Positions 52,469-64,000 of a DNA stretch of 64,000 nucleotides are shown here, piece after piece (position 1 is the first letter of the stretch; every line of letters starts with the position of its first letter). Location: assembly GCA_903861205.1 (NCBI GenBank), contig CAIOTC010000003.1:7964-71963 (forward strand). Reading direction: 5' to 3'. Both the position numbers and the translations under genes were made by a program. A model generated the notes under the pieces. That model was not told where the DNA came from, searched no databases, and saw only the letters and a program-made list of their open reading frames with translations. This DNA comes from an uncultured bacterium. Its GTDB lineage: Bacteria > Patescibacteriota > Minisyncoccia > Phycocordibacterales > DATDWN01.

Positions 52469-52604
52469 ACACGTAATTTGAACACGAAAAGTGGATAATT
52501 CGAGTTGATTTTGACGTTAAAGTATGATAGCATTCGTCCACAGCGGGATAGAGTAGCAGTAACTCGCGGGGCCCATAACCCTGAAACTCACGTGCAAGTC
52601 GTGA

Positions 52605-52661
52605 TCCCGCAACAAGTATGAAAAAACACCCATAATGGGTGTTTTTTCATACTTGTTGCGG
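52605..52661. other. Perfect 26-bp-stem hairpin (cccgcaacaagtatgaaaaaacaccc-ataat-gggtgttttttcatacttgttgcggg)
   Basis: Read directly; lies between the HEPN-like gene and tRNA-Met. Confidence 0.4.
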
Positions 52662-52707
52662 GATAGCGCTTGTTTTTATTCACTTGTTATATTATATTGT
52701 TTGTGCA

Positions 52708-52809: not shown

Positions 52810-53529
52810 GTGGATAACCAGTTAGTCAAATACCCTGTCACTATGTATAATATTATCGTGTATTCATATAAAAAAGTAAATAAAAATTTTTTCAAAAAAT
52901 GGTCATTTGAAATGGCATACGTTTTGGGATTTTTTGCTGCAGACGGATATATTACTGTAAATAGACGTGGAGGGCAGTTTTGGTGCTTTGATATTGGAGA
53001 CGAAAAATTAATAAAACAAATCAGAAAAACTATTAAATCTACCCACAAAATTAGCACAAGAAAAAGAAGTGATGGAAAGTATACAACTTATCGTTTGCAG
53101 ATTGGTAGCTCGGAAATGTGCGATGATTTACGTAGATTGGGTTTCAGCGAATGTAAAACAAACAACTTAGCTATACCGTACATTCCAAAAAAATATTTTT
53201 CTGATTTTGTAAGAGGGTATTTTGATGGTGATGGGCATGTGTGGGTTGCATATATAAACAAAAATAGAAAAAAACAAACTTTAGTAATTAATACTGGTTT
53301 TACATCGTGTTCCCTTAAGTTTCTTGAAGCACTTAATGATAGACTTGAAGTTTTTAATTCAGGTAAAGGTACAATAAGACAGGGAAATGGAAATTCTTAC
53401 CGTTTGAATTTTAATATAACTGGCTCTTTGAATTTGTACAAATTTATGTATAATGGTATGGACGAGTCTGATTTGTTTTTAAGCAGAAAAAAAGTAGTTT
53501 TCGAAAAGTTTATAAAAATGCGGTTGTAG
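52810..53529 (+). CDS. Free-standing double-motif LAGLIDADG homing endonuclease
   Basis: Two LAGLIDADG motifs, LGFFAADGYI and RGYFDGDGHV; low GC; stop codon lies inside the first nucleotides of tRNA-Asp. Confidence 0.75.
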   Translation: MDNQLVKYPVTMYNIIVYSYKKVNKNFFKKWSFEMAYVLGFFAADGYITVNRRGGQFWCFDIGDEKLIKQIRKTIKSTHKISTRKRSDGKYTTYRLQIGSSEMCDDLRRLGFSECKTNNLAIPYIPKKYFSDFVRGYFDGDGHVWVAYINKNRKKQTLVINTGFTSCSLKFLEALNDRLEVFNSGKGTIRQGNGNSYRLNFNITGSLNLYKFMYNGMDESDLFLSRKKVVFEKFIKMRL

Positions 53530-53593
53530 CTCAACGGTAGAGCACCCGCCTGTCACGCGGGAGGCCGTGGGGTCAGCACCCATCAGCCGCGCA
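53520..53593 (+). tRNA. tRNA-Asp (anticodon GUC); atypical T-loop; 3' end overlapped by the integrase gene
   Basis: Acceptor GCGGTTG/CAGCCGC, D-arm GCTCAACGGTAGAGC, anticodon loop CTGTCAC; T-loop GTCAGCA is non-canonical. Confidence 0.6.
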
Positions 53594-55190
53594 ATATAAG
53601 ATTAATCTTGTCAAGGGACGCTTCAACGGCGTCTCCTTTGGCTTTTTTCAGTTCCCACTCTGATATAGCGGCCTCTACGACTTTTTTCTTTTTTGTAATC
53701 GGAATAAACCATTTCATGGTGTCAATACTGAGTTTTCCGTCGGTTAGCTTGCAGTTCCCACCCATACCTAAAAATACTTCTTTTTTAGTTTGAAGATCAC
53801 CTTTATCAAATTTTTCTTTCGCCTTGCAAGCAAAATTAAATGTCTTTTCTGCCAGTTCCTGCCAGCTATCTGTTCTGTGTTCTGTTTGTTTTACACTTTG
53901 TCGCAGTGAAATAATTTCACTTTTCAGTCTTCTTTTTTCTTTCAAAAATTCTTCGTCGTCAATTAGTCTTCTGTATCGCATTTGAGTCAATTGATCCATG
54001 TCACTTTGTGTGGCATCGAGTGTCTTCTGTTGAGATGTAGCAACTATTTTTCTGTCGTTGATTTCAACATCATTACTTTTTTTGATAATATCAATTGCCC
54101 AATCTTTGAACTGAGGAATAATAGTAATTTCCTCAAGTTTCGCTTTTATTTGTTTTTCAAGCGATCTTCCAGTAGTGTAATGATTTTGTCCGCACTTACT
54201 ACCTTTATTTCTTCGCATACAGTAGTAGTACTCAAAAGTGGCAATTTTACCTGTACTTTTTATTATCTTTTTCTTCTCGATGGCAGTTACACTACCCCCG
54301 CACTCGCCGCATTTAATAATGCCAGTAAAAGCATGTTCGTGTTTTTTAGGACGAGGTTTACCTTTCTTTCCAAGAATTATCTGAGCTTTATCGAATTCTT
54401 CTTTAGTTATCATTGGTTCATGACGACCCTCATACCACTCACCGCCATACTTGAACATTCCAGTGTAAAAAGCGTTTGAAAATAATTCAAATATACTGCT
54501 ACGGCCAATAGGGCCACCACCACTTCTTTTTGTCTTTCGTGTTCTTATTCCCCACGCATTATTCATGATTTCCAATATCTGTGTGGGGTTATACGCATCA
54601 GAAAGAAGCAAGTCCCAAGCTTTTCTCACTAAATCAAATCTCTCAGGATCTTTCTTTATGGAATTCTCTCCACGACTTTCAAATTTTGTGTTGAGGTAAC
54701 CTATGGGGGCAACGATAGGGGCCATGCCTTTTGCAAGTTTGCTATCAATTCCTCTTTTAACATTTCGCTTCATGTCTCTGATAAACTGATTTGAAGAAGC
54801 ATTTTCAACGCTAATAACCACAGCATTATCGTCTGGCAAATATTCTCGGTTCATCGTTTGAATTGATTTGATAACTTCTTTCTGTAGTAGCCACTGAATT
54901 GTGGCACTGTCTATTGGATTTCGTGAAAGGCGATTCATCTCCCAGCACAAAATTCCATTTGCCTCACCTCTATTGATTCTTTTTATCAGTTCGTCAAAAA
55001 CTTTTCGGACATACGGTTCTTTTGCTGATTTTGATTCAAATAAAATATCCACGATTTCTAAATCCTTCGCTTTGGCAAGAATTTTCAAGCGGTCTATTTG
55101 ATCGTCGATTGACTGTATCTGCCTGTCCGACGACTCGGAACTTTTGCGAGCATAAAGCAGATATTTAATTTTCTCAGTTGAATTTAACAT
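53583..55190 (-). CDS. Large serine recombinase (phage-type integrase)
   Basis: N-terminal resolvase catalytic domain YARKSSESSDRQIQSIDDQ, recombinase domain, zinc-ribbon/coiled-coil C-terminus; 535 aa. Confidence 0.9.
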   Translation of the reverse strand: MLNSTEKIKYLLYARKSSESSDRQIQSIDDQIDRLKILAKAKDLEIVDILFESKSAKEPYVRKVFDELIKRINRGEANGILCWEMNRLSRNPIDSATIQWLLQKEVIKSIQTMNREYLPDDNAVVISVENASSNQFIRDMKRNVKRGIDSKLAKGMAPIVAPIGYLNTKFESRGENSIKKDPERFDLVRKAWDLLLSDAYNPTQILEIMNNAWGIRTRKTKRSGGGPIGRSSIFELFSNAFYTGMFKYGGEWYEGRHEPMITKEEFDKAQIILGKKGKPRPKKHEHAFTGIIKCGECGGSVTAIEKKKIIKSTGKIATFEYYYCMRRNKGSKCGQNHYTTGRSLEKQIKAKLEEITIIPQFKDWAIDIIKKSNDVEINDRKIVATSQQKTLDATQSDMDQLTQMRYRRLIDDEEFLKEKRRLKSEIISLRQSVKQTEHRTDSWQELAEKTFNFACKAKEKFDKGDLQTKKEVFLGMGGNCKLTDGKLSIDTMKWFIPITKKKKVVEAAISEWELKKAKGDAVEASLDKINLILRG

Positions 55191-55264
55191 TTTGTTTTGT
55201 GGTTAATTATAGTTCCAATAAATGAATTTTGGTAGCTGTTAGGATGTTAATAAGAAGTTGATAA

Positions 55265-57703
55265 CTACCATGGCAAATCAATCTCTTCATCTCCAGACGA
55301 ATCTTCTACCGATGCGACGATGGTTTCGGCAGGGCTATTTTCTTTAAGTATATTTTCTTGTTCCTCTGATTCTGTCGGTGCATCGGTGCTAGGCATTTCA
55401 GCTTTAACTTCCATAGTTACACTTTCACCAGTCAAAGGGTTGTAAATATTTTCAATATTTTCTTCAGGATTATCTAGGATAAGATCTTCGATAGAAGGCA
55501 AGAAGGTATCGCCAGGTAGTTCCTTTGCTTCAAGCTTGAATTCGGCACCTTTTGGCCCTTTGCTGTCAGTCACAACAGTCGTATAGCCCTTCTTGCTGGC
55601 AGGCTTCATCCACTTTGCCACTGTGTCTCTGTCCCATCCCAACTTTTTTGCCAATTGAGTTATAGTGAAAGTCTCATCACTACTAGGTGGAAATCCATCA
55701 ACATCGTCTTCTGTGACAATTATGTGAGCCATTTCAATCAGCTCTATGGTTTTCTCAGGCAATTCATAAATTGACTTGGACAAAGAATCCTCAACTATTA
55801 TTTTTGCGATATAAGCATCAGCTAAAGTAGCTTTAATATATTTTTTGCCATACAACTCAATTTTCTCTCGTTGTTTCTGGTGCAAAAACGCCACTGATTC
55901 CACTATTGCAAGGAAGTGTCCATAATCTCGTCTCGTGCGAACAATATGGTTAGGAAAATATTTTCTGAAACTTTTAACAAATGGAATATAGACAGGCATT
56001 TCTTCCAAAACTAGCTGGGCATTTTGCCATGGCTTGATTTCCTCATCACTTATCGGCTGTCTGCCTGTGTAACGGGCATCGACAGATTCATAGACACGAC
56101 TAGTCTGTTCAGAGCTTTGATCTGGAAACATAGATATATTTCGTGTGTCATTTTCAGCGTGGATATATGAAGCTGTGGTAGTGGTAACGAAGCCTGTAGG
56201 GCCTTCCTTTTCTATTGTTTGTGCTTCAAACTGTCCAGTATCAGGATTTTTTATTGTAACCTGAATTTTCAGTTTGCCTTCAGATTGAAGTGTTCGAATG
56301 GCATAGTCTGCTCGTTCACCGCCATGTTTTTCAAATATAACAATTATTTTGTGCTTGAAATGATCTTCTTCGCAGTAGAAAAAACTCTGAGGTGTGGCAT
56401 CAGTCAAATCAATGTAAGCGGATTTTGGAAACAACTTTATCGTAGTGAGCAATGTATATGACTTGCCAGAAGAACTATCACCTTTGACTGTTGCCGAAAG
56501 TGGATTTTTCAATTTTCGTGAAGTGAAAATAATATAGTGAAGCAAAACATTTTTTTCTTCACCAACAACACCTAACTTTTTAACCATTTGAAGAATGTCA
56601 AAAAGTAGGGTGGGGGATTTCAGTATTTTTTCTGCAGTTTGTTTTTCTTCCTCTGTCATTTCAGGTTCTGTTTCAAGTTGCTCCGCTTTTTTCTTTGCTT
56701 CTGTAACTTTTAAAATAAAATTGTATTTCATTTTTCTGAAATGTTTGATAATCAAATTCACATCTTTCGGTTTAATATCCAATTCAGTTTTTACTTTGTT
56801 ACGAATATATATTTCCGCTTCTTCTAAACTATCGCCTGAAACTAGTATTTCAAACAGTGGTGTTAGCACATTCAAGATAGATTCTTTAGGTGTATCTTTT
56901 GGTATTCTGCTCAACACAAGATTACATTGTTCCATAACAGATTCACTTTTTACGGCTTCAGTGGGGTATTTTCTGACACTCTCAAAAATACTGCGAAGTT
57001 CTTTTTCTTCCAGAGGTTCAGGTAGTCTATTATTACGAGCCACGACTGAATCCCAACCCGCAGTGTTCCACAACTCAATAGGAAGCTCATGCAGTATCTT
57101 TCCTGTGTAGGAAGTCATAGCGTTGCTTCTTGAACCCTCGACTATTTCATCAGGTTCTTTTTGCCAAAGCTTTACATCTTTTTTATCATCTTGCTGTTTA
57201 TCAAATTCAGCTTTTAGCCATACTGGAATATCAGCAACTTCTGCATCATCTGGGCTAACCGTCCATTCATATCTATTGCCACTCAAATGTAATGATGGGG
57301 CGACTACTACATATCCACCGTCTGCCTTTACATCAATTCCTACACCAAAAAGTTGTCCATTTGTGCTTTTGATAAACTTGCCAGGATATTTGAAAAAGAA
57401 ATGTTCACCACCACCGCCTGTTCTAGAACAAACGGTAGGTGGAATTTGGAATTCTTTTGAACTTCTATTGTGTTTGGCATCAATGTCAAAAACAACTAAG
57501 CTGGAAACTTTGCCTGTTGCTATACCTATGTTGGCATCAGGATTGTTTTTCCATAATAATGCCAGTTCTTCATCAGAAGCAATTTCAGTCTGATATTTTT
57601 TCCAGTCACAGAGAGGGATTTTATTTTTGCCAACTGGAAAAGGACTCCAACCTATACTGCGGTAATAAAGTGCCCACTCAAGATTTGTTTTTGTATTATC
57701 CAT
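55265..57703 (-). CDS. Bifunctional primase-polymerase (AEP PrimPol N-domain) fused to a P-loop NTPase (D5/SF3-like) replication protein
   Basis: N-terminal ...VVFDIDAKH... (DxD) and LHLSGNRYEW; central Walker A GDSSSGKSYTL; 812 aa. Confidence 0.75.
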   Translation of the reverse strand: MDNTKTNLEWALYYRSIGWSPFPVGKNKIPLCDWKKYQTEIASDEELALLWKNNPDANIGIATGKVSSLVVFDIDAKHNRSSKEFQIPPTVCSRTGGGGEHFFFKYPGKFIKSTNGQLFGVGIDVKADGGYVVVAPSLHLSGNRYEWTVSPDDAEVADIPVWLKAEFDKQQDDKKDVKLWQKEPDEIVEGSRSNAMTSYTGKILHELPIELWNTAGWDSVVARNNRLPEPLEEKELRSIFESVRKYPTEAVKSESVMEQCNLVLSRIPKDTPKESILNVLTPLFEILVSGDSLEEAEIYIRNKVKTELDIKPKDVNLIIKHFRKMKYNFILKVTEAKKKAEQLETEPEMTEEEKQTAEKILKSPTLLFDILQMVKKLGVVGEEKNVLLHYIIFTSRKLKNPLSATVKGDSSSGKSYTLLTTIKLFPKSAYIDLTDATPQSFFYCEEDHFKHKIIVIFEKHGGERADYAIRTLQSEGKLKIQVTIKNPDTGQFEAQTIEKEGPTGFVTTTTASYIHAENDTRNISMFPDQSSEQTSRVYESVDARYTGRQPISDEEIKPWQNAQLVLEEMPVYIPFVKSFRKYFPNHIVRTRRDYGHFLAIVESVAFLHQKQREKIELYGKKYIKATLADAYIAKIIVEDSLSKSIYELPEKTIELIEMAHIIVTEDDVDGFPPSSDETFTITQLAKKLGWDRDTVAKWMKPASKKGYTTVVTDSKGPKGAEFKLEAKELPGDTFLPSIEDLILDNPEENIENIYNPLTGESVTMEVKAEMPSTDAPTESEEQENILKENSPAETIVASVEDSSGDEEIDLPW

Positions 57704-57859
57704 TGTTGTTTCGGTTATATTTTTTAATGTTGGTATTGCACATCTTTATTATTTTGTTAGGAATAAAGTTATTTTCTCGTGCAATGCGATTAAATTTTTT
57801 TAGTGACATCCAACTTGGGCCACTGTTTTCTACTCTTCTATAAAACTTCCTTAGGTTTG

Positions 57860-58156
57860 TCATATAATTTTGTTATTATGATTAACTATTAATTTTGGTT
57901 CTAAAACTTTTTCGTCACATGGTTTATCACACAAAAGCAACATAAAGCGGACGAGCTTCATGCCTTCTTGGCGAGCGTCTTCTACGCTTAGATCAATTCC
58001 AAAATGATCCTTGTAAAGGGCTTGGAATTTTGCTATGTCGCTGTCTGTGAGTTGAACCATGTTTTTGTTGATAATGTTTATAATTCGACTTTCATGGTTA
58101 GCTGGCATTTGCCAAATATGGAAGTCAAGTGGAAACAAATAGATTGTGGAAAGCAA
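57860..58156 (-). CDS. Hypothetical protein (element-encoded)
   Basis: 98 aa ORF in the same - strand operon as the primase. Confidence 0.3.
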   Translation of the reverse strand: MLSTIYLFPLDFHIWQMPANHESRIINIINKNMVQLTDSDIAKFQALYKDHFGIDLSVEDARQEGMKLVRFMLLLCDKPCDEKVLEPKLIVNHNNKII

Positions 58157-58305
58157 AAATACCGCTATGTTAAGCGGTATCCCTACTCTTCACTTTTTTG
58201 GTTTATTTTTTTTACTATTTCAATTCTGGAAAAATTTTTGAAATATTGTTGTATTAAGCCACAGAAAAAATCCAGAATTCAAAAACACTGGATTTTTTGA
58301 CTTTA

Positions 58306-58986
58306 TTAAATAATCATTTTGTAACCTATTCCTCTAACACTCTCAATTATTTCTGGAAATTCTGTGTAGCCAGTTGCCATTTTCAATTTTTCCTTCACTT
58401 CGTTCACAGCAGATTGCACAGCAGTTATCTGCCTTTTTGTTACTCCCTCTCTTTGATTTGGTCGTCCTTGTCCAAAGTCTCTCACATTTCTTATAGCTTC
58501 GTATAGTTCTTCGAAAGAAGTATCCTTTCCAAATTTCCTTTTCAAACACCGAAACACTGCGAGTTCATTTCCCCTGAAAGAAATTTCAGTAGGCAATCCT
58601 AAGTAAGTCAAAACTGTACTACCTTCATGATTTTGTTCTTCACCAAACAAGCATGACGATTCGTCAAAAGTTTTTTCAAAATACATTTTAAGTAGTTCCG
58701 TAGTGTATCCAGATATTTCAACATGTCCATTTTCAGATAGTGTCCATGAGGGTTCTGGGTTTGTTTCCGGTCTTATTTTTAGTACAACACCTTTTATTTC
58801 TGTCAGCATATGTATAACAAGCCATTGTGGTGTTTTTCTTGCAGTGTCAAAGTCAGTAGGGGAATTTGTTATAAGTGCAGGATCAAAATCAATAGATGTG
58901 TGAAATCCGTCGACTTCATGTACTCTCATTTCGATTAATTGTCGTGTGAACCATTTTAGCTGCTCACTAAAAATTTCAGTTACCAT
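58306..58986 (-). CDS. Putative regulator with a C-terminal OmpR/PhoB-type winged-helix (..ESVRGIGYKMI)
   Basis: C-terminal motif resembles the trans_reg_C terminus; N-domain unknown. Confidence 0.4.
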   Translation of the reverse strand: MVTEIFSEQLKWFTRQLIEMRVHEVDGFHTSIDFDPALITNSPTDFDTARKTPQWLVIHMLTEIKGVVLKIRPETNPEPSWTLSENGHVEISGYTTELLKMYFEKTFDESSCLFGEEQNHEGSTVLTYLGLPTEISFRGNELAVFRCLKRKFGKDTSFEELYEAIRNVRDFGQGRPNQREGVTKRQITAVQSAVNEVKEKLKMATGYTEFPEIIESVRGIGYKMII

Positions 58987-59013
58987 ATGAGGTTATTATA
59001 AAACAAACTTAAC

Positions 59014-59292
59014 TCAAATCATCATTGTGGCCATTAATAATAATATAGAAAGTAGAGGTGATACTAATAATATCAAAAAAATGGACGGGGTTTGTTTGCC
59101 ATTTTTTATAAAAATAGTTACTGAGTGAACGAAACTTGAAACTAGCACAACAACATAAACAAAAATAGTAAATGTCAAAATATTTCCAGAATCTCCAAAC
59201 ATAGTTAAAAATGTATGTATTAATGCAAAAGGTAGAATAAATTCTAAAACCAACAATACAATAGCAAGATTGTTGTCACTTCGTTTGATCAT
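59014..59292 (-). CDS. Small membrane protein (3 TM), holin-like by size only
   Basis: 92 aa, strongly hydrophobic. Confidence 0.35.
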   Translation of the reverse strand: MIKRSDNNLAIVLLVLEFILPFALIHTFLTMFGDSGNILTFTIFVYVVVLVSSFVHSVTIFIKNGKQTPSIFLILLVSPLLSILLLMATMMI

Positions 59293-59446
59293 AATTTGTT
59301 ATTTTTTTAAAGTTAAAGTTCGGATTTTTAATAACTCAATTATACAGCAGTTAACATCTTTTTTGTAATCCACAGTCGTATAACAGGTTTACACCCAAAT
59401 GAACTCATTGTGATATAATATATTTATTAAAAATTTCTAAAATAAT

Positions 59447-60607
59447 ATGGAACAAAACTATCAAAATGGTGAATCTCCTTTGCAACCCTTACAAACCACT
59501 CAACAAAACGATTTTTCAAATCAAACTTCACCACAATCTGATATTAAAATTCCAACGCACCCTACTGGTAAAAAGTACAGTAAATTTTTTGTAGTTATTC
59601 TAGCAGTTTTGTTGGTTGTAACCATAATAACTGCGGGAATTTTTGCTATGCAAAATAAAACTGTAAGTGAAAAATCTGTGACAAACATTTCTGACTGTCA
59701 AAAAACATCAGATGCAGGATCTTGTATTTTATCGTTTGCATTAAAACAAGCTGATCCATCAATATGCGGTGAATATTTTGTTGGTGAGAAAAAGGATATG
59801 TGTTTATCACAGGTTTCTGTTTTAAAAAAGGATTTGGCTACATGTCAGTTAGTTGACACATTACAATATAGACAGATTTGCTATCAACAAATTACTGGAA
59901 AAAATTTGACTGCCACTACATCTGTAACTCAAAATCCAAGTGATTGCACAAGCCTTACCAATCCAGCTGAACAATATTATTGTGTTGCAAAACAAGCTGA
60001 ATCAAAAAATAATCCAGCTCTATGCGACACAGTAACAACACAAAACTTTAAAGACAGATGTTACATGCAGGTTGCGGAAGATACAAAAAATTCACAATTA
60101 TGTGCCAAAGTTAGAACACCTGATAATAAAGATATTTGCTATAACGCCTTAGCCCAATTAACTAACGATTCTAAGTTATGTAATCAAATAAAAAATAATA
60201 CTGGAATGAAAGAAGGCTGTTTACAAATTTTTGAATTGAAGAAACCACAAGTTCCTTCGCTTGCTGTAACTATGGATTTGTCTATGGCAACTTTAACGGG
60301 TAAGGCGGGACAAACTGTTGATGTAACAGGAACTATAGAAAATTATTCTGGACAAACCGTATACCTTAATACCATGGGTGGATCATTAGGTTCGCCTGAT
60401 ATGGAATTGGACACTGCATACTTCTTTCAAGTTGTTCCTCGTATTTTCAAACAAGGGGATATATATAAAGGTACATTATTTTCAGTAAGTATTGGCAGTA
60501 ATGTTCAGCCTGGTAACTATCGGGTTAGTTTCTATTTCATGGGGGGAAAGGATATTTCTGGTTTTGATCAGTTAACAAAACAAAATCTCTCAATAACAGT
60601 ACAATAA
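59447..60607 (+). CDS. Membrane-anchored Cys-rich repeat surface protein with a C-terminal beta-rich domain
   Basis: N-terminus MEQNYQNGESPLQPLQTTQQNDF..., TM, ~8 Cys-pair repeats (C...D..CY). Confidence 0.5.
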   Translation: MEQNYQNGESPLQPLQTTQQNDFSNQTSPQSDIKIPTHPTGKKYSKFFVVILAVLLVVTIITAGIFAMQNKTVSEKSVTNISDCQKTSDAGSCILSFALKQADPSICGEYFVGEKKDMCLSQVSVLKKDLATCQLVDTLQYRQICYQQITGKNLTATTSVTQNPSDCTSLTNPAEQYYCVAKQAESKNNPALCDTVTTQNFKDRCYMQVAEDTKNSQLCAKVRTPDNKDICYNALAQLTNDSKLCNQIKNNTGMKEGCLQIFELKKPQVPSLAVTMDLSMATLTGKAGQTVDVTGTIENYSGQTVYLNTMGGSLGSPDMELDTAYFFQVVPRIFKQGDIYKGTLFSVSIGSNVQPGNYRVSFYFMGGKDISGFDQLTKQNLSITVQ

Positions 60608-60658
60608 ACAACTGTGATAAATAATACAATATTATCTTTAATTTAAAGTAAAAATACC

Positions 60659-62125
60659 ATGGAACCAAATAATACAAATAGCGAGTTTCCTTCACAACCT
60701 TTACAAACTACACCTCAGCCAGATTTTTTAAACCAAACTCAACCTTCTAAAAAATTATCAACAATATTTTTGTTGTTTATTATCATAATGGTTGTTGTGC
60801 TTGGTGGTGCTAGTGTTTTTGCATATCAAATATATCAAAAAAATAAAATTATTCCTGCTGTTCCTGTTAAAAATACAGTTGTTAATAATGTAGCGATTGC
60901 TTCAACAACTGGCATAACAATAAAATACATTGATGTTAAAGGTAAAATTTTAGAAGCTAAAAATGGACATTACTTATCTGGTGAAAATATTTACTCTTCA
61001 AATATAAATTTATTTTATGATGGAAATCCTATTTTGAATAAAACAATACTTGGTAAAGATAGTTATTTTGACAGTCAATCATTAAGTAGTAACGGTATGC
61101 ATTATGCTTTTGTTATGGCACATTATCCACATTATCCTATGATGCCACTGACAAATACCCACGATTTGTATATTGATGGCAAGAAAATAAAAGCTTTGCA
61201 TAGTCCTATAATTCCACTTGTTTCTGATACTGGTGAATTTGTAGAGGCAAACCTCAAGACTGCAAAGCAGTCTACTTTCCCATATTCTATGTCTAGTCCA
61301 AATGGACAACATAATGCGGATATAAAAAATGGGAATCTATTTATAGATGGTAAACCAATGTTATCGAGTACAACCACTATTATTAATATTAATCAATTGC
61401 AGATCACCGATTCTGGACATTATTTGCTATTTTTCTCTTACATTTACACATCAGACAAATACGGTAAAACATCTAAAACATCAGTTTATATTGATGGAAA
61501 AGAATATTCCTCAACAGGTTTCGTCTATGGCTACATAAATAATGATGCAACCCATCATCTTTTCTATAGTTCTAATAATGTGTGGGCATTGGATGACAAA
61601 CCTATAGATTTCCAAGGTGTTGCAATTCCTTATAATAAAATTAGTGACGCTCCTTTTGGAACAAGTCTAGTGGAAATGATAGACAATACAATTTATGTTT
61701 ACAAAGCAGATAAGACATACAATGTAGTTGATAAAATTCCTGAAATGCCTGCCAATACCGTTAATAGCTTAGATCAAAACATCAGTGTTATTCTGGATAA
61801 GGTTGATGGCATTGGAAGCAGAAATACAGCAATTCAGTTCAAAGGAAAAGTTGTAAATAATTCTGACTGGAAAGAAATTTATCTCAATGGTGCTGGTGGA
61901 AACACATCTAGTGGGGAACTAACCATGGACAACTCTCAGTTTTTTGTGTTGCCCCCAAAACTTGATCCTGGTCAAGTTATAACAGGGGAACTTTTTTCAA
62001 TTGCAGTTTCTCAAGTTGCTTTACCTGGTGACTATTCTGCAACTATGACTATTCAAGGTGGTACAAATCAAACGACCTATGACACGATGACTACTTCAGA
62101 TGTAACAATTAATATAAAACCATAG
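60659..62125 (+). CDS. Paralogous membrane-anchored surface protein (same cytoplasmic N-terminus and C-terminal domain, different ectodomain)
   Basis: MEPNNTNSEFPSQPLQTTPQPDF... parallels the 59447 gene; C-terminal ...GELFSIAVSQVALPGDYSATMTIQGG resembles ...GTLFSVSIGSNVQPGNYRVSFYFMGG. Confidence 0.5.
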   Translation: MEPNNTNSEFPSQPLQTTPQPDFLNQTQPSKKLSTIFLLFIIIMVVVLGGASVFAYQIYQKNKIIPAVPVKNTVVNNVAIASTTGITIKYIDVKGKILEAKNGHYLSGENIYSSNINLFYDGNPILNKTILGKDSYFDSQSLSSNGMHYAFVMAHYPHYPMMPLTNTHDLYIDGKKIKALHSPIIPLVSDTGEFVEANLKTAKQSTFPYSMSSPNGQHNADIKNGNLFIDGKPMLSSTTTIININQLQITDSGHYLLFFSYIYTSDKYGKTSKTSVYIDGKEYSSTGFVYGYINNDATHHLFYSSNNVWALDDKPIDFQGVAIPYNKISDAPFGTSLVEMIDNTIYVYKADKTYNVVDKIPEMPANTVNSLDQNISVILDKVDGIGSRNTAIQFKGKVVNNSDWKEIYLNGAGGNTSSGELTMDNSQFFVLPPKLDPGQVITGELFSIAVSQVALPGDYSATMTIQGGTNQTTYDTMTTSDVTINIKP

Positions 62126-62140
62126 TCATAAAATAAAAAT

Positions 62141-62398
62141 ATGTACAATTTTTTTGTTAATTTAGTAAAAGAGTTTTTTGCTCACCCATTCATTCTGATT
62201 TTATTTGTTCTTTTGATAGTAGGTATGTTTCTGTACACAAAGAATAAAAAACAAAAAACTAGTACCACCGTACGAGAATCATTAACAATGGTTGCCATAG
62301 GAGTATTGGTGTTTGTAGTCATTATTATATTGTTTATAAATTTTATTGGCGGAAGTTTTGAATGTAATGGTGGTAGTGGTTTTATATTTGCGTGTTAA
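62141..62398 (+). CDS. Small membrane protein
   Basis: 85 aa, 2 TM. Confidence 0.3.
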   Translation: MYNFFVNLVKEFFAHPFILILFVLLIVGMFLYTKNKKQKTSTTVRESLTMVAIGVLVFVVIIILFINFIGGSFECNGGSGFIFAC

Positions 62399-62409
62399 AC
62401 TTAAAAATA

Positions 62410-62717
62410 TGAAAAAAATTATCTTTTTCTTGGTGGGTTTGTTTTTACCAGTTGCTATTGAGGTGTATTTTTATTTTAATTTTCTTTCACCGAGTGTTTC
62501 TTCTATAGCATCACCACTAGTATTTACTTTTCTCGGAGTTCCACTAGCCGTTTTGTTTGTAGTACCCATTATTGTCGGTGCAATCATTATGAATTTATAC
62601 GGTTTTGCAAATAAACCAGTCGTTTATAGTTATTGGATTGGTGTAATTTTAGGAATATTATCCGTATATTTTGTATCTATACCAAATTTTATTTCTTTTC
62701 TGAAAATATACTTTTAA
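62410..62717 (+). CDS. Small membrane protein
   Basis: Start MKKIIFFLVGLFLPVAI; 3 TM. Confidence 0.35.
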
Positions 62718-62723
62718 TTATCC

Positions 62724-63269
62724 ATGACTAGTATTCAACAAAAAATAGTAGATGAAATTCTGGACGAATACAAAAACAAGGAACACATAATCGGTGTCCG
62801 TGTTTTTGGAAGTGTTGCTGTGGGTAAAGAAAGAAGTAATTCAGATGTTGATATCACCATCATTTTTGATGACGATAGAGAATGGGAATTATTCAAAGAA
62901 AATAAATATGGAATCGCTGTTGATTTTGAGATTGTTACAAAAAATATTTGGGAGATGATGTTGAAAGAGTATCCATATCTTTTTTACATAGAAAATAGCA
63001 AGATTGTTTTGGATAAGACAGGATTTGTAAAAGATGCGTTAAACAAAAGTAAAAAATATTTTGACGACAATCCTGAGGTTTATGATTTTTGGAAAAAGAA
63101 CTATGATCTGATGAGGGAATTAAAAGCGTCTGGAGAAAAACCTAAAAATTATATTGTAATTTGTGATGAAGCGGAAACCAGATTTTCAGATTATCACTCT
63201 GTTAAAAGGGACATCTTGACACCAGAATTTTTTCATAAACATACAAAAAAAATCAACCTAATGAATTGA
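62724..63269 (+). CDS. Minimal nucleotidyltransferase (Pol-beta superfamily; MNT/KNTase-like)
   Basis: GSVAVGKERSNSDVDITII = GS-x9-13-DxD NTase motif; 181 aa with a helical C-terminus. Confidence 0.6.
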   Translation: MTSIQQKIVDEILDEYKNKEHIIGVRVFGSVAVGKERSNSDVDITIIFDDDREWELFKENKYGIAVDFEIVTKNIWEMMLKEYPYLFYIENSKIVLDKTGFVKDALNKSKKYFDDNPEVYDFWKKNYDLMRELKASGEKPKNYIVICDEAETRFSDYHSVKRDILTPEFFHKHTKKINLMN

Positions 63270-63353
63270 TAGGGAGTTTGGAAGAGCTTCCATTTGTAAA
63301 TAAAGAAAAAAGGGCTGGCGGAATAATCACGCACAGCCCATTGAAATTCTTTT

Positions 63354-63554
63354 TTACTCCCAAACCAAACCATATTTCTTTCTGGCCTCGTCCACTTTCG
63401 CTAACTGGATTCGGATAGTGGCTCGCTTAATACACTCCATTAGCTCCTCCCAGTCCTGCCACGGAAATGTTTTGACTTTCACCATAGCAGACAGCACTTG
63501 CTCGTCGGTAGTGAGTGTCTGAATTTCAGATATGAATTTTTCTTTCACTCTCAT
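63354..63554 (-). CDS. Hypothetical small protein
   Basis: 66 aa ORF. Confidence 0.25.
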   Translation of the reverse strand: MRVKEKFISEIQTLTTDEQVLSAMVKVKTFPWQDWEELMECIKRATIRIQLAKVDEARKKYGLVWE

Positions 63555-63706
63555 TCCTTTCTACAGTCTATATTATCATACAAGATATAATAAAGTCAAT
63601 AGTGGGGTGTAGGGTGTTGTATTAGATTTGGTATATGAAGTTTATATCGAATGGAAGTGTATTGTTTGACATACCATTTCACATTTGATATGATATCGTC
63701 ATAAAT

Positions 63707-64000
63707 ATGAAATACAGAGAAATATTGTTAGAACAGCTCAAATCACAGCCATATTTCACTAAAAAGGTGGTATATCAGCTCAGTGAGCAGTATAAGCTTA
63801 AAAATACCACAGTTGACTCATATATCAGCCAGTCTTTGAAGCACAAGGATATTATTTCGCTCAGAAATGGACTATATATTTCTAACGATTTTTATAACAA
63901 AAACAAAGGCGATATTTCCTATTCTTTTTACCTTGCAAACATACTTCGTAAACCTTCGTACATAAGTTCGTGGACGGCTTTGCAGTATTACAACCTGGCG
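63707..64000 (+). CDS. AbiEi-like (type IV TA antitoxin / transcriptional regulator N-domain) protein, 5' partial
   Basis: Open frame from ATG 63707 to the window end (98 codons); ...SLRNGLYIS..., ...PSYISSWTALQYYNL resembles the AbiEi pattern. Confidence 0.4.
   Translation, partial: MKYREILLEQLKSQPYFTKKVVYQLSEQYKLKNTTVDSYISQSLKHKDIISLRNGLYISNDFYNKNKGDISYSFYLANILRKPSYISSWTALQYYNLA

What the first reader, a model, noticed from the sequence alone, without database searches (positions are those of the whole stretch)
53520..57703. Integrated element at tRNA-Asp: large serine recombinase overlapping the tRNA 3' end, plus an AEP primase-polymerase/NTPase replication protein
The integrase gene ends 11 nt inside tRNA-Asp. 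The tRNA T-loop (GTCAGCA) is non-canonical, consistent with the 3' portion being element-derived. The 812-aa protein combines a PrimPol domain (DxD, ...LHLSGNRYEW) with a Walker-A NTPase. This is a replication module typical of phages, plasmids and ICEs. Mobile elements of CPR bacteria are poorly characterised.
Basis: partly seen in the sequence, partly recalled or inferred. Interest (0 to 1): 0.55.

Follow-up and report, generated by a model that had tools for sequence, protein, structure and literature searches.

The report
Serine-integrase replicating element at tRNA-Asp
A small self-replicating mobile element is inserted at the end of a tRNA-Asp gene in a candidate-phyla-radiation (CPR) bacterium; its integrase belongs to a large, apparently undescribed group of serine recombinases that sit against tRNA gene ends, a target so far credited only to tyrosine integrases.

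Summary
tRNA-Asp(GUC) lies at 53520-53591. A 535-aa large serine recombinase (LSR; 53583-55190, minus strand) has its last three codons and stop on the antisense of the tRNA's last 9-10 nt, not 11. An 812-aa Prim-Pol protein lies at 55265-57703 (minus). Its 'NTPase' part is an MCM-like AAA+ helicase followed by a winged helix.

It is an inserted element:
- Orthologous loci (gatC-gatA-h316-LAGLIDADG-tRNA-Asp) in metagenome contigs lack it.
- GC falls from 0.435 to 0.36.
- In 63 of 85 loci with related LSRs, the gene converges on and overlaps (one abuts) the 3' end of a tRNA. Nine tRNA types are used, and LSR relatedness tracks tRNA type.
- Three relatives carry a 13-18-nt repeat of the tRNA-Asp 3' end at the far side; in two a hairpin plus T-run follows it.
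- One element is 96-99.9% identical in three species, and in one pair identity stops 7 nt inside tRNA-His.

The far end of the element was not found in the window.

The Islander paper (published 2014) stated that serine integrases were not known to target tRNA genes. I found no later description.

The parts
53520..53591 (+). tRNA-Asp(GUC), the integration target (attL side). It is intact and has no intron. The T-loop GUCAGCA is non-canonical and the acceptor stem has a U5-G68 wobble pair.
   Evidence: ARAGORN; Rfam tRNA 58.8 bits; T-arm parsed. The same gene lies in the same synteny without any LSR in L117, L123, L125 and L159.
53583..55190 (-). Large serine recombinase (serine integrase), 535 aa. 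The last three codons (L-R-G) and the TGA stop lie on the antisense of tRNA positions about 65-73.
   Evidence: Pfam Resolvase E 6.7e-15, Recombinase 1e-11, Zn_ribbon_recom 2.4e-9. PHROGs phrog_95 integrase, E 2.3e-59. Invariant in 33 homologues: R15, S17 and the four Cys C294, C297, C324, C333. Full-length alignment to homologues of 50-76% identity.
53583..53592 (.). Overlap of the LSR ORF end with the tRNA-Asp 3' end; presumed to lie in or next to the recombination core.
   Evidence: Sequence. The same 10-nt overlap occurs in L085, L014 and L062 and a similar short overlap in L168 and L171 (read from sequence); a 40-nt overlap occurs in 12 other tRNA-Asp loci.
53615..53650 (+). Terminator-like hairpin (8 pairs) followed by a T-run, 24 nt after the tRNA and inside the LSR coding sequence. 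Inferred to be an element-supplied replacement terminator for the tRNA operon.
   Evidence: Consensus scan, which was not enriched over shuffles, so this is weak on its own. An analogous hairpin with changes on both arms lies in L005, L010 and L063 (GGACGC..GCGTCC against GGAGC..GCTCC). In reconstructed empty sites a hairpin plus T-run follows the tRNA.
55265..57703 (-). Replication protein, 812 aa: Prim-Pol (aa 12-162, nt 57218-57670), PriCT_1 (aa 187-246), MCM-like AAA+ core (about aa 383-608, nt 55880-56557; Walker A 408-415, Walker B-like IIVIFE 453-458), winged helix (about aa 650-724), and a disordered acidic tail.
   Evidence: Pfam; PHROGs primase families. AlphaFold2 model of aa 260-812: mean pLDDT 82.3. 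Foldseek against PDB: the top hits are nearly all MCM2-7 or archaeal MCM, E down to 1.3e-8, probability 1.00. Profile search against PDB: MarR-type winged helix. Invariant G-K (Walker A), E, TTT and RR residues. In homologues the C-terminal module is fused to Prim-Pol, DnaG/Toprim or PF22763 N-termini.
57860..58156 (-). Small conserved ORF (98 aa as listed; the conserved part is about 40-65 aa). A core gene of this element family with unknown function; candidate regulator or directionality factor.
   Evidence: tblastn homologues inside 43 of the LSR loci, up to 57% identity. No match in Pfam, PHROGs, NCBIfam or PADLOC.
58306..58986 (-). 226-aa ORF with a weak C-terminal winged-helix match. Probably the last core gene of the element.
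   Evidence: Pfam Trans_reg_C, E 6e-4, below the cutoff. A homologue (29% identity, E 2.7e-11) lies at the equivalent position of the related element in L168. An unannotated 237-aa gene of similar size sits at that position in L171, but tblastn found no similarity to it.
59014..64000 (.). Low-GC (0.325) accessory region whose membership of the element is uncertain. It holds a small membrane ORF (59014-59292), two ORFs (59447-60607 and 60659-62125) that by eye share N-terminal and C-terminal motifs and a hydrophobic N-terminal stretch, small hydrophobic ORFs, a MntA-like nucleotidyltransferase (62724-63269), and the 5' part of an AbiEi-like gene (63707 to beyond 64000).
   Evidence: GC values. 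No homologues in the 85 LSR loci. NCBIfam MntA_antitoxin E 1.4e-6. PADLOC AbiEi E 1.4e-12. Related compact elements in L168 and L171 appear to end right after the 229/237-aa gene, which argues that the window's element may end between 58987 and 59446.

Best explanation
Positions 53592 to at least 58986 are an integrated, plasmid-like mobile element of a CPR (Patescibacteria) bacterium.

Integration (inferred from the family). The LSR recombines an attP site at the 3' end of its own gene with an attB site formed by the 3' end of the chromosomal tRNA-Asp gene and its downstream flank. The tRNA gene stays intact. In some relatives the element brings an identical copy of the last 13-18 nt of the tRNA and leaves the displaced copy at the far junction. 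In the window's own clade no duplicated tRNA piece is detectable, so the crossover is probably at or just after the tRNA 3' terminus, as expected for a 2-bp serine-recombinase crossover.

Replication (inferred from domains). After excision the circle would be replicated by the 812-aa protein. The winged helix would recognise the origin, the MCM-like AAA+ ring would unwind it, and the Prim-Pol domain would prime synthesis.

Shown here: the gene content, the overlap with the tRNA, absence of the element from orthologous loci, and family-wide association with tRNA 3' ends. Inferred: the crossover position, present-day activity, episomal replication, and the route of transfer between cells. No virion or conjugation genes were seen.
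For: Anatomy and domains.

Composition: GC is 0.435 in 1-52800 and 0.359 in 53592-59440.

Empty sites: a metagenome scan with the neighbouring LAGLIDADG protein returned 80 loci. In these the LAGLIDADG ORF abuts tRNA-Asp, and only one (the same contig as L082) has an LSR beside it. L117, L123, L125 and L159 share the upstream genes with the window (gatC/gatA in some, h316 and LAGLIDADG in all) but have no LSR or Prim-Pol downstream.

Family behaviour: at least 574 LSR relatives in GTDB species genomes. In 63 of 85 loci a convergent tRNA meets the LSR ORF end (62 overlap it by 10-108 nt, one lies 43 nt away). Ten more contigs stop right after the LSR. Of the remaining 12, two (L082, L004) carry a tRNA split by a group I intron by Rfam and a third (L007) appears to by eye. 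The nearest-neighbour LSR shares the tRNA type in 53 of 63 cases, against 12.7 expected by chance. LSRs of only 28-34% identity also lie next to tRNA-His, -Met or -Thr.

Delimited relatives: L005, L010 and L063 have repeats of 18, 14 and 14 nt that start at the tRNA-Asp 3' end, giving elements of about 10.7, 5.9 and 7 kb. In the reconstructed attB of L005 and L063 the tRNA is followed by a hairpin plus T-run.

Recent mobility: one element is 96-99.9% identical in three GTDB species genomes (L027, L028, L029). Between L028 and L029 the identity stops 7 nt inside divergent tRNA-His genes; between L027 and L029 it runs through the tRNA and stops at its 5' end.

Same replicon elsewhere: L168 carries it at tRNA-Asp in the same host synteny, and L171 has the replicon, an LSR and a tRNA-Asp 3' exon (its contig ends inside the tRNA). 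L170 carries the replicon with a tyrosine integrase instead.

Replication protein fold.
Against: No attR, and no copy of the tRNA 3' end, lies in 53620-64000, so the far boundary of this copy is unknown and the copy could be immobilised. No read-level evidence of excision is available. The att sites and crossover position are inferred from relatives whose LSRs are 50-58% identical. The closest relatives (L001, L002, L014, L062, L168, L171) also show no far-side repeat within 10 kb. The MCM assignment rests on a predicted structure (TM-score about 0.39 over the whole query); no sequence-level MCM match was found.
Confidence: 0.8

Rival explanations
1. The element is an immobilised remnant. The LSR and Prim-Pol genes are still intact, but the far att site has been lost or degraded, so the island can no longer excise.
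For: No second att repeat lies in the 10.4 kb downstream of the tRNA. The low-GC region continues to the end of the window with unrelated cargo.
Against: Both large ORFs are full length relative to homologues (98-100% coverage). Related compact elements of the same replicon type (L168, L171) also lack a detectable repeat although they look complete. A serine recombinase needs only a 2-bp identity at the crossover, so the absence of a long repeat is not evidence of decay.
Confidence: 0.15
2. It is the integrase-and-replication end of a larger temperate phage whose structural genes lie beyond the window.
For: The low-GC island runs to position 64000 and beyond: an AbiEi-like gene is cut by the window end. 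Prim-Pol-helicase proteins are common in phages. One distant LSR relative lies on an IMG/VR contig next to tRNA-His.
Against: No PHROGs structural, packaging or lysis family matches any ORF in 57.7-64 kb. The LSR alignment found only 2 distant relatives in 2.9 million viral contigs, against at least 574 in genomes, and the Prim-Pol protein found none. Delimited relatives are about 6-11 kb, and other relatives appear to be only about 6-7 kb; the genes immediately upstream of the LSR in 73 relatives show no virion-type Pfam family, though the full gene content of those elements was not scanned.
Confidence: 0.07
3. One reading: the 3' part of the tRNA, including the odd T-loop, was brought in by the element, making the tRNA a chimera.
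For: The last 26 nt of tRNA-Asp are identical in the window, L082 and L085, while the 5' halves differ. The window has a U5-G68 wobble where the other two have C5-G68.
Against: The identical T-loop GTCAGCA, the same acceptor 3' strand CAGCCGC and the same or a near-identical T-stem occur in six loci with no LSR beside the tRNA, two of them with 8-10 kb of LSR-free downstream sequence. LSR relatives of equal similarity (L001, L002, L083) sit at tRNA-Asp genes with canonical T-loops.
Confidence: 0.04
4. The junction is an assembly artefact that joins a free plasmid to the chromosome through a shared tRNA-like sequence.
For: Many related contigs break at exactly this junction (10 of 85; also L001, L002, L171).
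Against: The shared sequence in relatives is only 13-18 nt, shorter than the k-mer lengths normally used by assemblers (this last point is my own knowledge). The same junction type recurs in 63 independent assemblies with host genes beyond the tRNA, including contigs of 0.5-0.6 Mb (L010, L029).
Confidence: 0.02

Closest known systems
Staphylococcal SCC/SCCmec elements (CcrAB/CcrC large serine recombinases, Cch MCM-like helicase, CCPol primase-polymerase)
   Same: A small integrative element with no virion or conjugation genes of its own. It is moved by a large serine recombinase, inserts at the extreme 3' end of a conserved housekeeping gene without inactivating it, and carries an MCM-like helicase and an AEP-type primase, which implies replication after excision. 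NCBIfam gives a weak CcrB match (65.6 bits, far below the 900-bit cutoff). The SCC facts are from my own knowledge (Mir-Sanchis et al. 2016; Bebel et al. 2020) and were not checked here.
   Different: The target is a tRNA gene rather than rlmH (orfX). The host is a CPR bacterium. Primase and helicase are fused in one 812-aa protein. The LSR is only distantly related to Ccr, and its ORF ends inside the target gene.
tRNA/tmRNA-targeting genomic islands with tyrosine integrases (the Islander signature; P4-like integrases)
   Same: The integrase gene sits beside the 3' end of a tRNA. The tRNA stays intact. In relatives a short 3' tRNA fragment marks the far end. Integrase clades switch between tRNA species.
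   Different: The enzyme is a serine recombinase, not a tyrosine recombinase. [quoted passage not shown] The repeats are shorter (0-18 nt), and the integrase ORF overlaps the tRNA on the opposite strand.
BcMCM, the primase-MCM fusion protein of a Bacillus cereus prophage
   Same: An N-terminal AEP primase domain is fused to an MCM-type AAA+ helicase that lacks the canonical MCM N-terminal domain, and it is encoded by an integrated mobile element (abstracts of PMC2715239 and PMC3273815).
   Different: No sequence-level MCM match here (no Pfam MCM hit). The precomputed Pfam domain is PF27228 (MTBMA_p00010_2nd). There is an extra PriCT_1 and a C-terminal MarR-like winged helix. A direct comparison with the BcMCM sequence could not be run.
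Phage serine integrases (phiC31, Bxb1, A118, TP901-1) and the serine-recombinase integrative mobilizable elements of Firmicutes
   Same: The same three-domain architecture: catalytic domain, recombinase domain, and zinc ribbon with coiled coil.
   Different: According to the review read (PMC5704250), known serine-recombinase mobilizable elements integrate within protein-coding genes, often disrupting them. This family consistently sits at tRNA 3' ends. The statement about the named phage integrases' targets is from my own knowledge.
pRN1-type plasmids and integrated plasmids of archaea (ORF904 Prim-Pol plus helicase)
   Same: A single large replication protein with Prim-Pol, an NTPase/helicase and a winged helix, on a small cryptic replicon that can integrate. 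This is from my own knowledge. Foldseek against viral structures also hits fusellovirus proteins.
   Different: ORF904 carries a superfamily-3 helicase, whereas the fold here is MCM-like. The host is bacterial (CPR) and the integrase is a serine recombinase.

Membership tests
Large serine recombinase (serine integrase) | N-terminal resolvase-type catalytic domain with the serine nucleophile | tested here: met
   PF00239, E 6.7e-15, residues 12-155. R15 and S17 are invariant in 33 homologues.
Large serine recombinase (serine integrase) | Recombinase domain followed by a zinc-ribbon domain | tested here: met
   PF07508 E 1e-11 and PF13408 E 2.4e-9. Four invariant Cys: C294, C297, C324, C333. That the helical, charged stretch after C333 is a coiled coil is my reading of the sequence only.
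Large serine recombinase (serine integrase) | Catalyses attP x attB recombination at a central dinucleotide | not testable with these tools
   Needs a recombination assay. Junction comparisons in relatives only bound the crossover to the last 18 nt or less of the tRNA.
tRNA-integrated genomic island (Islander signature) | Integrase gene adjacent to an intact tRNA gene | tested here: met
tRNA-integrated genomic island (Islander signature) | Displaced tRNA 3' fragment as a direct repeat at the far end of the island | tested here: inconclusive
   None in 53620-64000, but the island may run past the window or use a repeat of only a few nt. Met in relatives L005, L010 and L063.
tRNA-integrated genomic island (Islander signature) | Element absent from the orthologous locus of related genomes | tested here: met
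   79 of 80 LAGLIDADG loci have no LSR beside the LAGLIDADG gene, and four of them share the window's upstream synteny.
tRNA-integrated genomic island (Islander signature) | Integrase of the tyrosine recombinase family | tested here: not met
   No PF00589 match on any ORF scanned in 53.5-64 kb; the only recombinase found is the LSR.
AEP / Prim-Pol primase-polymerase | Prim-Pol domain with the DxD and histidine catalytic motifs | tested here: met
   PF09250, E 7.8e-29. D73-x-D75, GGGGEH at 96-101, GIDVK at 122-126.
MCM-type AAA+ replicative helicase | MCM AAA+ fold with Walker A/B and arginine-finger-type residues | tested here: met
   Foldseek against PDB: 101 hits at E <= 1e-3; the top 50 are nearly all MCM. 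Walker A GDSSSGKS; invariant E, TTT and R residues. This is a predicted structure (pLDDT 82), not a solved one.
MCM-type AAA+ replicative helicase | Sequence-level membership (Pfam MCM) and the canonical N-terminal OB-fold/zinc domain | tested here: not met
   No MCM family in Pfam, NCBIfam or by PDB sequence search. The segment before the AAA+ core is all helical in the model. It therefore works like an MCM but is not filed as a canonical MCM.
SCC-type element | Ccr-type LSR and integration into rlmH (orfX) | tested here: not met
   CcrB scores 65.6 bits against a 900-bit cutoff, and the target is tRNA-Asp.
Temperate phage (prophage) | Capsid, terminase, tail or lysis genes | tested here: not met
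   No such PHROGs family among 10 ORFs of 53.6-63.6 kb. The window ends before the island does, so this is incomplete.

The most novel reading that the evidence does not exclude
A deep clade of large serine recombinases, found mostly in CPR bacteria (at least 574 members in species-representative genomes), has independently evolved the habit of tyrosine integrases of inserting at the 3' ends of tRNA genes and probably tmRNA genes. Its attP lies within the end of its own gene, so that the antisense strand of the host tRNA supplies the integrase's last codons and stop codon. Specificity has switched among at least nine tRNA species. These would be the first tRNA-targeting serine integrases described and a natural panel of enzymes for conserved 'safe-harbour' sites.
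Probability: 0.5. Interest if true: 0.8.

Novelty: new variant of a known kind. Interest (0 to 1): 0.64.

Why it matters
Integration at tRNA genes is a textbook property of tyrosine integrases. [quoted passage not shown] A large family of serine integrases doing exactly this would show convergent evolution of target choice. It would also mean that island finders which assume tyrosine integrases at tRNA genes miss these elements. Serine integrases are valued genome-engineering tools, and this family would add enzymes whose natural sites are short, highly conserved tRNA ends. For CPR bacteria, whose mobile elements are barely known, it defines a common type of small integrative replicon (LSR plus an exchangeable primase-helicase module) and gives concrete att candidates that could be turned into genetic tools.

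Tried and rejected
1. Finding the second att site in the window. Searches with the tRNA 3' 23-mer and 14-mer (up to 3 mismatches), the acceptor 8-mer, anchored 10-14-mers and blastn-short all found nothing beyond 53592. An exact 15-nt pair (59260-59274 and 62994-63008, family D19) loosely resembles the sequence just after the tRNA, but it has no counterpart in empty sites, so I treated it as chance.

2. Fetching the rest of the 76,426-bp contig. Exact look-ups of three window proteins failed. An exact 59-mer scan of JGI metagenomes found nothing. The genome is not among the GTDB species representatives returned.

3. Far-side repeats in the closest LSR relatives (L001, L002, L014, L062, L168, L171): none above chance. 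A 10-nt repeat in L027-L029 was rejected as attR because it lies inside sequence shared by all three copies. The left limit of identity between L028 and L029 shows no tRNA fragment.

4. Locating the window's host flank by homology to genes downstream of tRNA-Asp in empty sites: no hits.

5. Sequence-level identification of the C-terminal domain: nothing in Pfam, NCBIfam or PDB sequences. It was solved only by structure prediction.

7. Circular contigs (terminal repeats) among the LSR loci: none.

8. Dyad symmetry around the tRNA 3' end. A motif (G/A)AGTCCC-N16-GGGACTT is visible in the 40-nt-overlap clade (read) but not in the window's clade, so I did not use it to place the crossover.

9. Literature. 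Nine searches and six papers read; the TIGER 2020 paper is not held.

Full report
**What is in the window.** ARAGORN calls tRNA-Asp(GTC) at 53520-53592, and Rfam's tRNA model matches 53520-53591 at 58.8 bits. On the opposite strand, ORF 53583-55190 encodes a 535-aa protein with Resolvase, Recombinase and Zn_ribbon_recom domains. PHROGs assigns it to integrase family phrog_95 at E 2.3e-59. Its stop codon is the reverse complement of 53583-53585, so the overlap with the tRNA is 9-10 nt, not 11. ORF 55265-57703 (-) encodes 812 aa with a Prim-Pol domain (E 7.8e-29), a weak PriCT_1 match, and the motifs D73xD75, GGGGEH and Walker A GDSSSGKS. GC falls from 0.435 upstream to 0.359 in 53592-59440 and 0.325 in 59440-64000.

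**The replication protein.** The C-terminal 550 residues match nothing by sequence in Pfam, NCBIfam or the PDB. Homologues carry this module behind three different primase types: Prim-Pol, DnaG/Toprim, or PF22763. This is the pattern expected of a helicase that pairs with interchangeable primases. An AlphaFold2 model built from a 31-sequence alignment has mean pLDDT 82.3. Foldseek against the PDB returns almost only MCM2-7 and archaeal MCM subunits (best E 1.3e-8, probability 1.00). A profile search against PDB sequences finds a MarR-type winged helix near the C-terminus. The protein is thus Prim-Pol + PriCT + MCM-like AAA+ + winged helix. This is the same logic as the primase-MCM fusion of a Bacillus cereus prophage (PMC2715239 and PMC3273815). 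It is not a canonical MCM by sequence.

**Is it an inserted element?** The gene directly upstream of tRNA-Asp is a LAGLIDADG endonuclease ORF (52810-53529). Using it as a handle, a metagenome scan returned 80 loci out of at least 341 relatives. In these loci the LAGLIDADG ORF abuts tRNA-Asp, yet only one has an LSR beside it, and that one is the same contig as L082. L117, L123, L125 and L159 also share the window's upstream genes (gatC/gatA in some, the 316-aa gene here called h316 and LAGLIDADG in all) and have no LSR or Prim-Pol downstream.

**The recombinase family.**
- A scan of GTDB species genomes with an alignment of 33 LSRs found at least 574 relatives, most of them labelled as CPR/Patescibacteria genomes.
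- Among the 80 fetched loci plus 5 from protein look-ups, 63 have a convergent tRNA at the end of the LSR ORF. In 62 it overlaps by 10-108 nt; in one it lies 43 nt away.
- The tRNAs are His 21, Asp 17, Gln 7, Trp 6, Asn 4, Ser 4, Ile 2, Glu 1 and Arg 1.
- Ten further contigs end within 200 nt of the LSR.
- Of the 12 loci with no tRNA call, L082 and L004 have a tRNA-Asp split by a group I intron by Rfam, and L007 appears to by eye. L067 ends in what looks by eye like a tmRNA 3' end.
- The most similar LSR shares the tRNA type in 53 of 63 cases, against 12.7 expected by chance.
- LSRs of only 28-34% identity also abut tRNA-His, -Met or -Thr.

**Junctions in relatives.** In L005, L010 and L063 the last 18, 14 and 14 nt of tRNA-Asp recur 9.0, 4.2 and 5.3 kb upstream of the LSR (E 1e-5 to 3e-3). 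Swapping the arms reconstructs an attB. In L005 and L063 this attB shows the tRNA followed immediately by a hairpin and T-run, as expected for a native tRNA terminator. In these loci the LSR ORF reads 40 nt into the tRNA, past the repeat. Its last 7-8 codons and its stop (the antisense of the anticodon loop) are therefore host DNA, and the excised form would encode a different tail.

A second line of evidence comes from L027, L028 and L029, which are three different GTDB species genomes. They carry the same element at 96-99.9% identity over 6-10 kb. Between L028 and L029 the identity stops 7 nt inside divergent tRNA-His genes. Between L027 and L029 it runs through the tRNA, with several mismatches there, and stops at the tRNA's 5' end. 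The shared segments at these junctions are too short to cause assembly chimeras.

**The T-loop.** GTCAGCA is truly non-canonical, and it also occurs beside the related LSRs in L082, L085 and L171. But it occurs equally in six tRNA-Asp genes with no LSR beside them, with the same acceptor stem and the same or a near-identical T-stem. A second odd variant, ATCAACA, occurs in two more. LSR relatives of equal similarity sit at tRNA-Asp genes with canonical loops. The loop is a host-lineage trait, not a scar of integration.

**Extent of the element in the window.**
- The 98-aa ORF (57860-58156) has homologues in 43 LSR loci.
- The 226-aa ORF (58306-58986) has a homologue in the related element of L168.
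- Nothing beyond 59014 has a homologue in any LSR locus.
- L168 carries the same replicon (62% identity) at tRNA-Asp in the same host synteny. L171 carries the replicon (64% identity), an LSR and a tRNA-Asp 3' exon, but its contig ends inside the tRNA.
- Both of these are compact, about 6-7 kb, with the order 229/237-aa gene, small ORF(s), Prim-Pol-MCM, small ORF, LSR. Genes on the far side look like host genes (polysaccharide synthesis; an ABC transporter).
- By analogy the window's element may end between 58987 and 59446, at about 5.5-5.9 kb. No repeat marks that point.
- Alternatively the element continues past 64000, where an AbiEi-like gene is cut by the window end.
- No far-side repeat was found in L168 or L171 either. 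This suggests that in these clades the crossover lies at or just beyond the tRNA terminus.

**What kind of element.** No virion, packaging, lysis or conjugation gene was found in the window region. The genes immediately upstream of the LSR in 73 relatives match only primases, helix-turn-helix proteins and a few other families, none of virion type. The LSR family is nearly absent from 2.9 million viral contigs, and the replication protein is absent from them. The replicon module also travels with a tyrosine integrase and defence cargo in L170. The best description is a small integrative plasmid-like element. It resembles SCC elements in logic (LSR, MCM-like helicase, primase, and insertion at the 3' end of a housekeeping gene), but it targets tRNA genes.

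**Novelty.** The Islander paper says that only tyrosine recombinases are known to target tRNA and tmRNA genes (PMC4383910). A 2017 review places serine-recombinase mobilizable elements inside protein genes (PMC5704250). A 2026 provirus survey reports that tyrosine integrases preferentially target RNA loci (PMC13626063). Nine searches found no description of tRNA-targeting serine integrases or of these CPR elements. The TIGER 2020 paper and subscription journals could not be checked, so prior mention in large catalogues cannot be excluded.

**Verdict.** The finding is real and its main interpretation is right. The T-loop argument is wrong, and the far boundary is unresolved. The wider significance lies in the family, not in this single copy.

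Noticed in passing
window 52810-53529 (+); loci L088-L167, L082, L007, L168: A free-standing LAGLIDADG endonuclease ORF ends 10 nt inside the 5' end of tRNA-Asp. Its last codons (M/L-R-L) and TAG stop are tRNA positions 1-10, and the stop is the conserved U8-A9-G10. At least 341 relatives exist in metagenomes. Among the 80 fetched, an intact tRNA-Asp starts within 30 nt of the ORF end in 39, and most of the rest show the tRNA 5' exon there. In the window, tRNA-Asp is therefore overlapped at both ends by genes of selfish elements.
   Followed up: partly
L082 3796-3995 (-); L004 11648-12009 (-); L007, L168, L171; about 33 of L088-L167: In many relatives tRNA-Asp is split after anticodon position 35 (...CCTGT | AGAnnnnTGCAGCTT...) by an intron of about 200-360 nt. 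The intron matches Rfam group I intron (44.7 bits, E 8e-10; and 54.2 bits, above the gathering score). The count of about 33 is from reading the sequences by eye. The window's copy has no intron although it keeps the adjacent LAGLIDADG gene. This suggests an endonuclease encoded outside the intron that acts on the intron insertion site.
   Followed up: partly
window 53572-53578; L091, L092, L117, L123, L125, L159, L127, L164: A CPR lineage has tRNA-Asp with T-loop GUCAGCA, or AUCAACA in two loci, in place of the canonical UUCRANU. Position 54 is not U in either variant, and position 58 is G rather than A in GUCAGCA; U55 and C56 are kept. This is independent of the mobile element.
   Followed up: partly
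window 52542-52664: The first 'tRNA-Met' (52542-52613) is called only by ARAGORN, not by Rfam at its gathering score, and has T-loop UGCAAGU. Its 3' end is part of a perfect 30+30-nt palindrome (52604-52664) around a terminator-like hairpin, followed by a 12-nt partial copy of the tRNA's own 5' end. In L082 the equivalent tRNA-Met is inverted, so the palindrome may be the footprint of an inversion.
   Followed up: no
window 63707-64000 (+) and 62724-63269 (+): An AbiEi-like gene (PADLOC E 1.4e-12) is cut by the window end; its AbiEii partner would lie beyond. A 181-aa MntA-like nucleotidyltransferase lies just upstream (NCBIfam E 1.4e-6; PADLOC PDC-S09). Both are defence or toxin-antitoxin type cargo in the low-GC region.
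   Followed up: partly
window 59447-60607 (+) and 60659-62125 (+): Two adjacent ORFs that by eye look paralogous: they share an N-terminal motif (..PLQPLQTT.Q.DF.NQT.P), a hydrophobic N-terminal stretch and a C-terminal motif (FF.V.P......G..F S..). GC is about 0.30. They match no family in any library and have no homologue in the LSR loci.
   Followed up: no
L005, L010, L063 and other tRNA-Asp loci with 40-nt overlap: The LSR ORF runs past the direct repeat into host tRNA sequence. The integrated form always ends ...RDLNPQP.. with the anticodon-loop antisense TGA as stop, whereas the reconstructed excised form would encode tails of different length (538-606 aa in total). Integration therefore changes the integrase C-terminus. 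Whether this matters for directionality is unknown.
   Followed up: partly
L027, L028, L029: The same element is 96-99.9% identical over 6-10 kb in three different GTDB species genomes, next to divergent tRNA-His genes. This is evidence of very recent horizontal spread among CPR bacteria.
   Followed up: partly
about half of loci L003-L081, directly upstream of the LSR: A same-strand ORF of about 190-230 aa precedes the LSR in about 38 of 76 loci, and most of these match no Pfam family. HTH_36 proteins (7), Prim-Pol (5) and Toprim primases (5) fill the position in other loci. The unannotated ORF may be an unrecognised replication or directionality protein.
   Followed up: partly
L067 about 1530-1594; L015; L038: Some LSR genes end in sequences that look by eye like the CCA-bearing 3' end of a tmRNA, or of long-arm tRNAs that ARAGORN did not call. 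The family's targets may therefore include tmRNA.
   Followed up: no
L170 2868-15375: The same Prim-Pol/MCM-like replicon (60% identity) is followed by a tyrosine integrase instead of an LSR, plus Pif1, RadC, Schlafen/AlbA and a type I restriction-modification system. This shows modular exchange of integrases and defence cargo.
   Followed up: no
L004 6935-7053 (-): A LOOT RNA (Rfam RF03000, 90 bits) lies about 3 kb upstream of the LSR gene in a Candidatus Taylorbacteria contig, probably within the LSR element.
   Followed up: no
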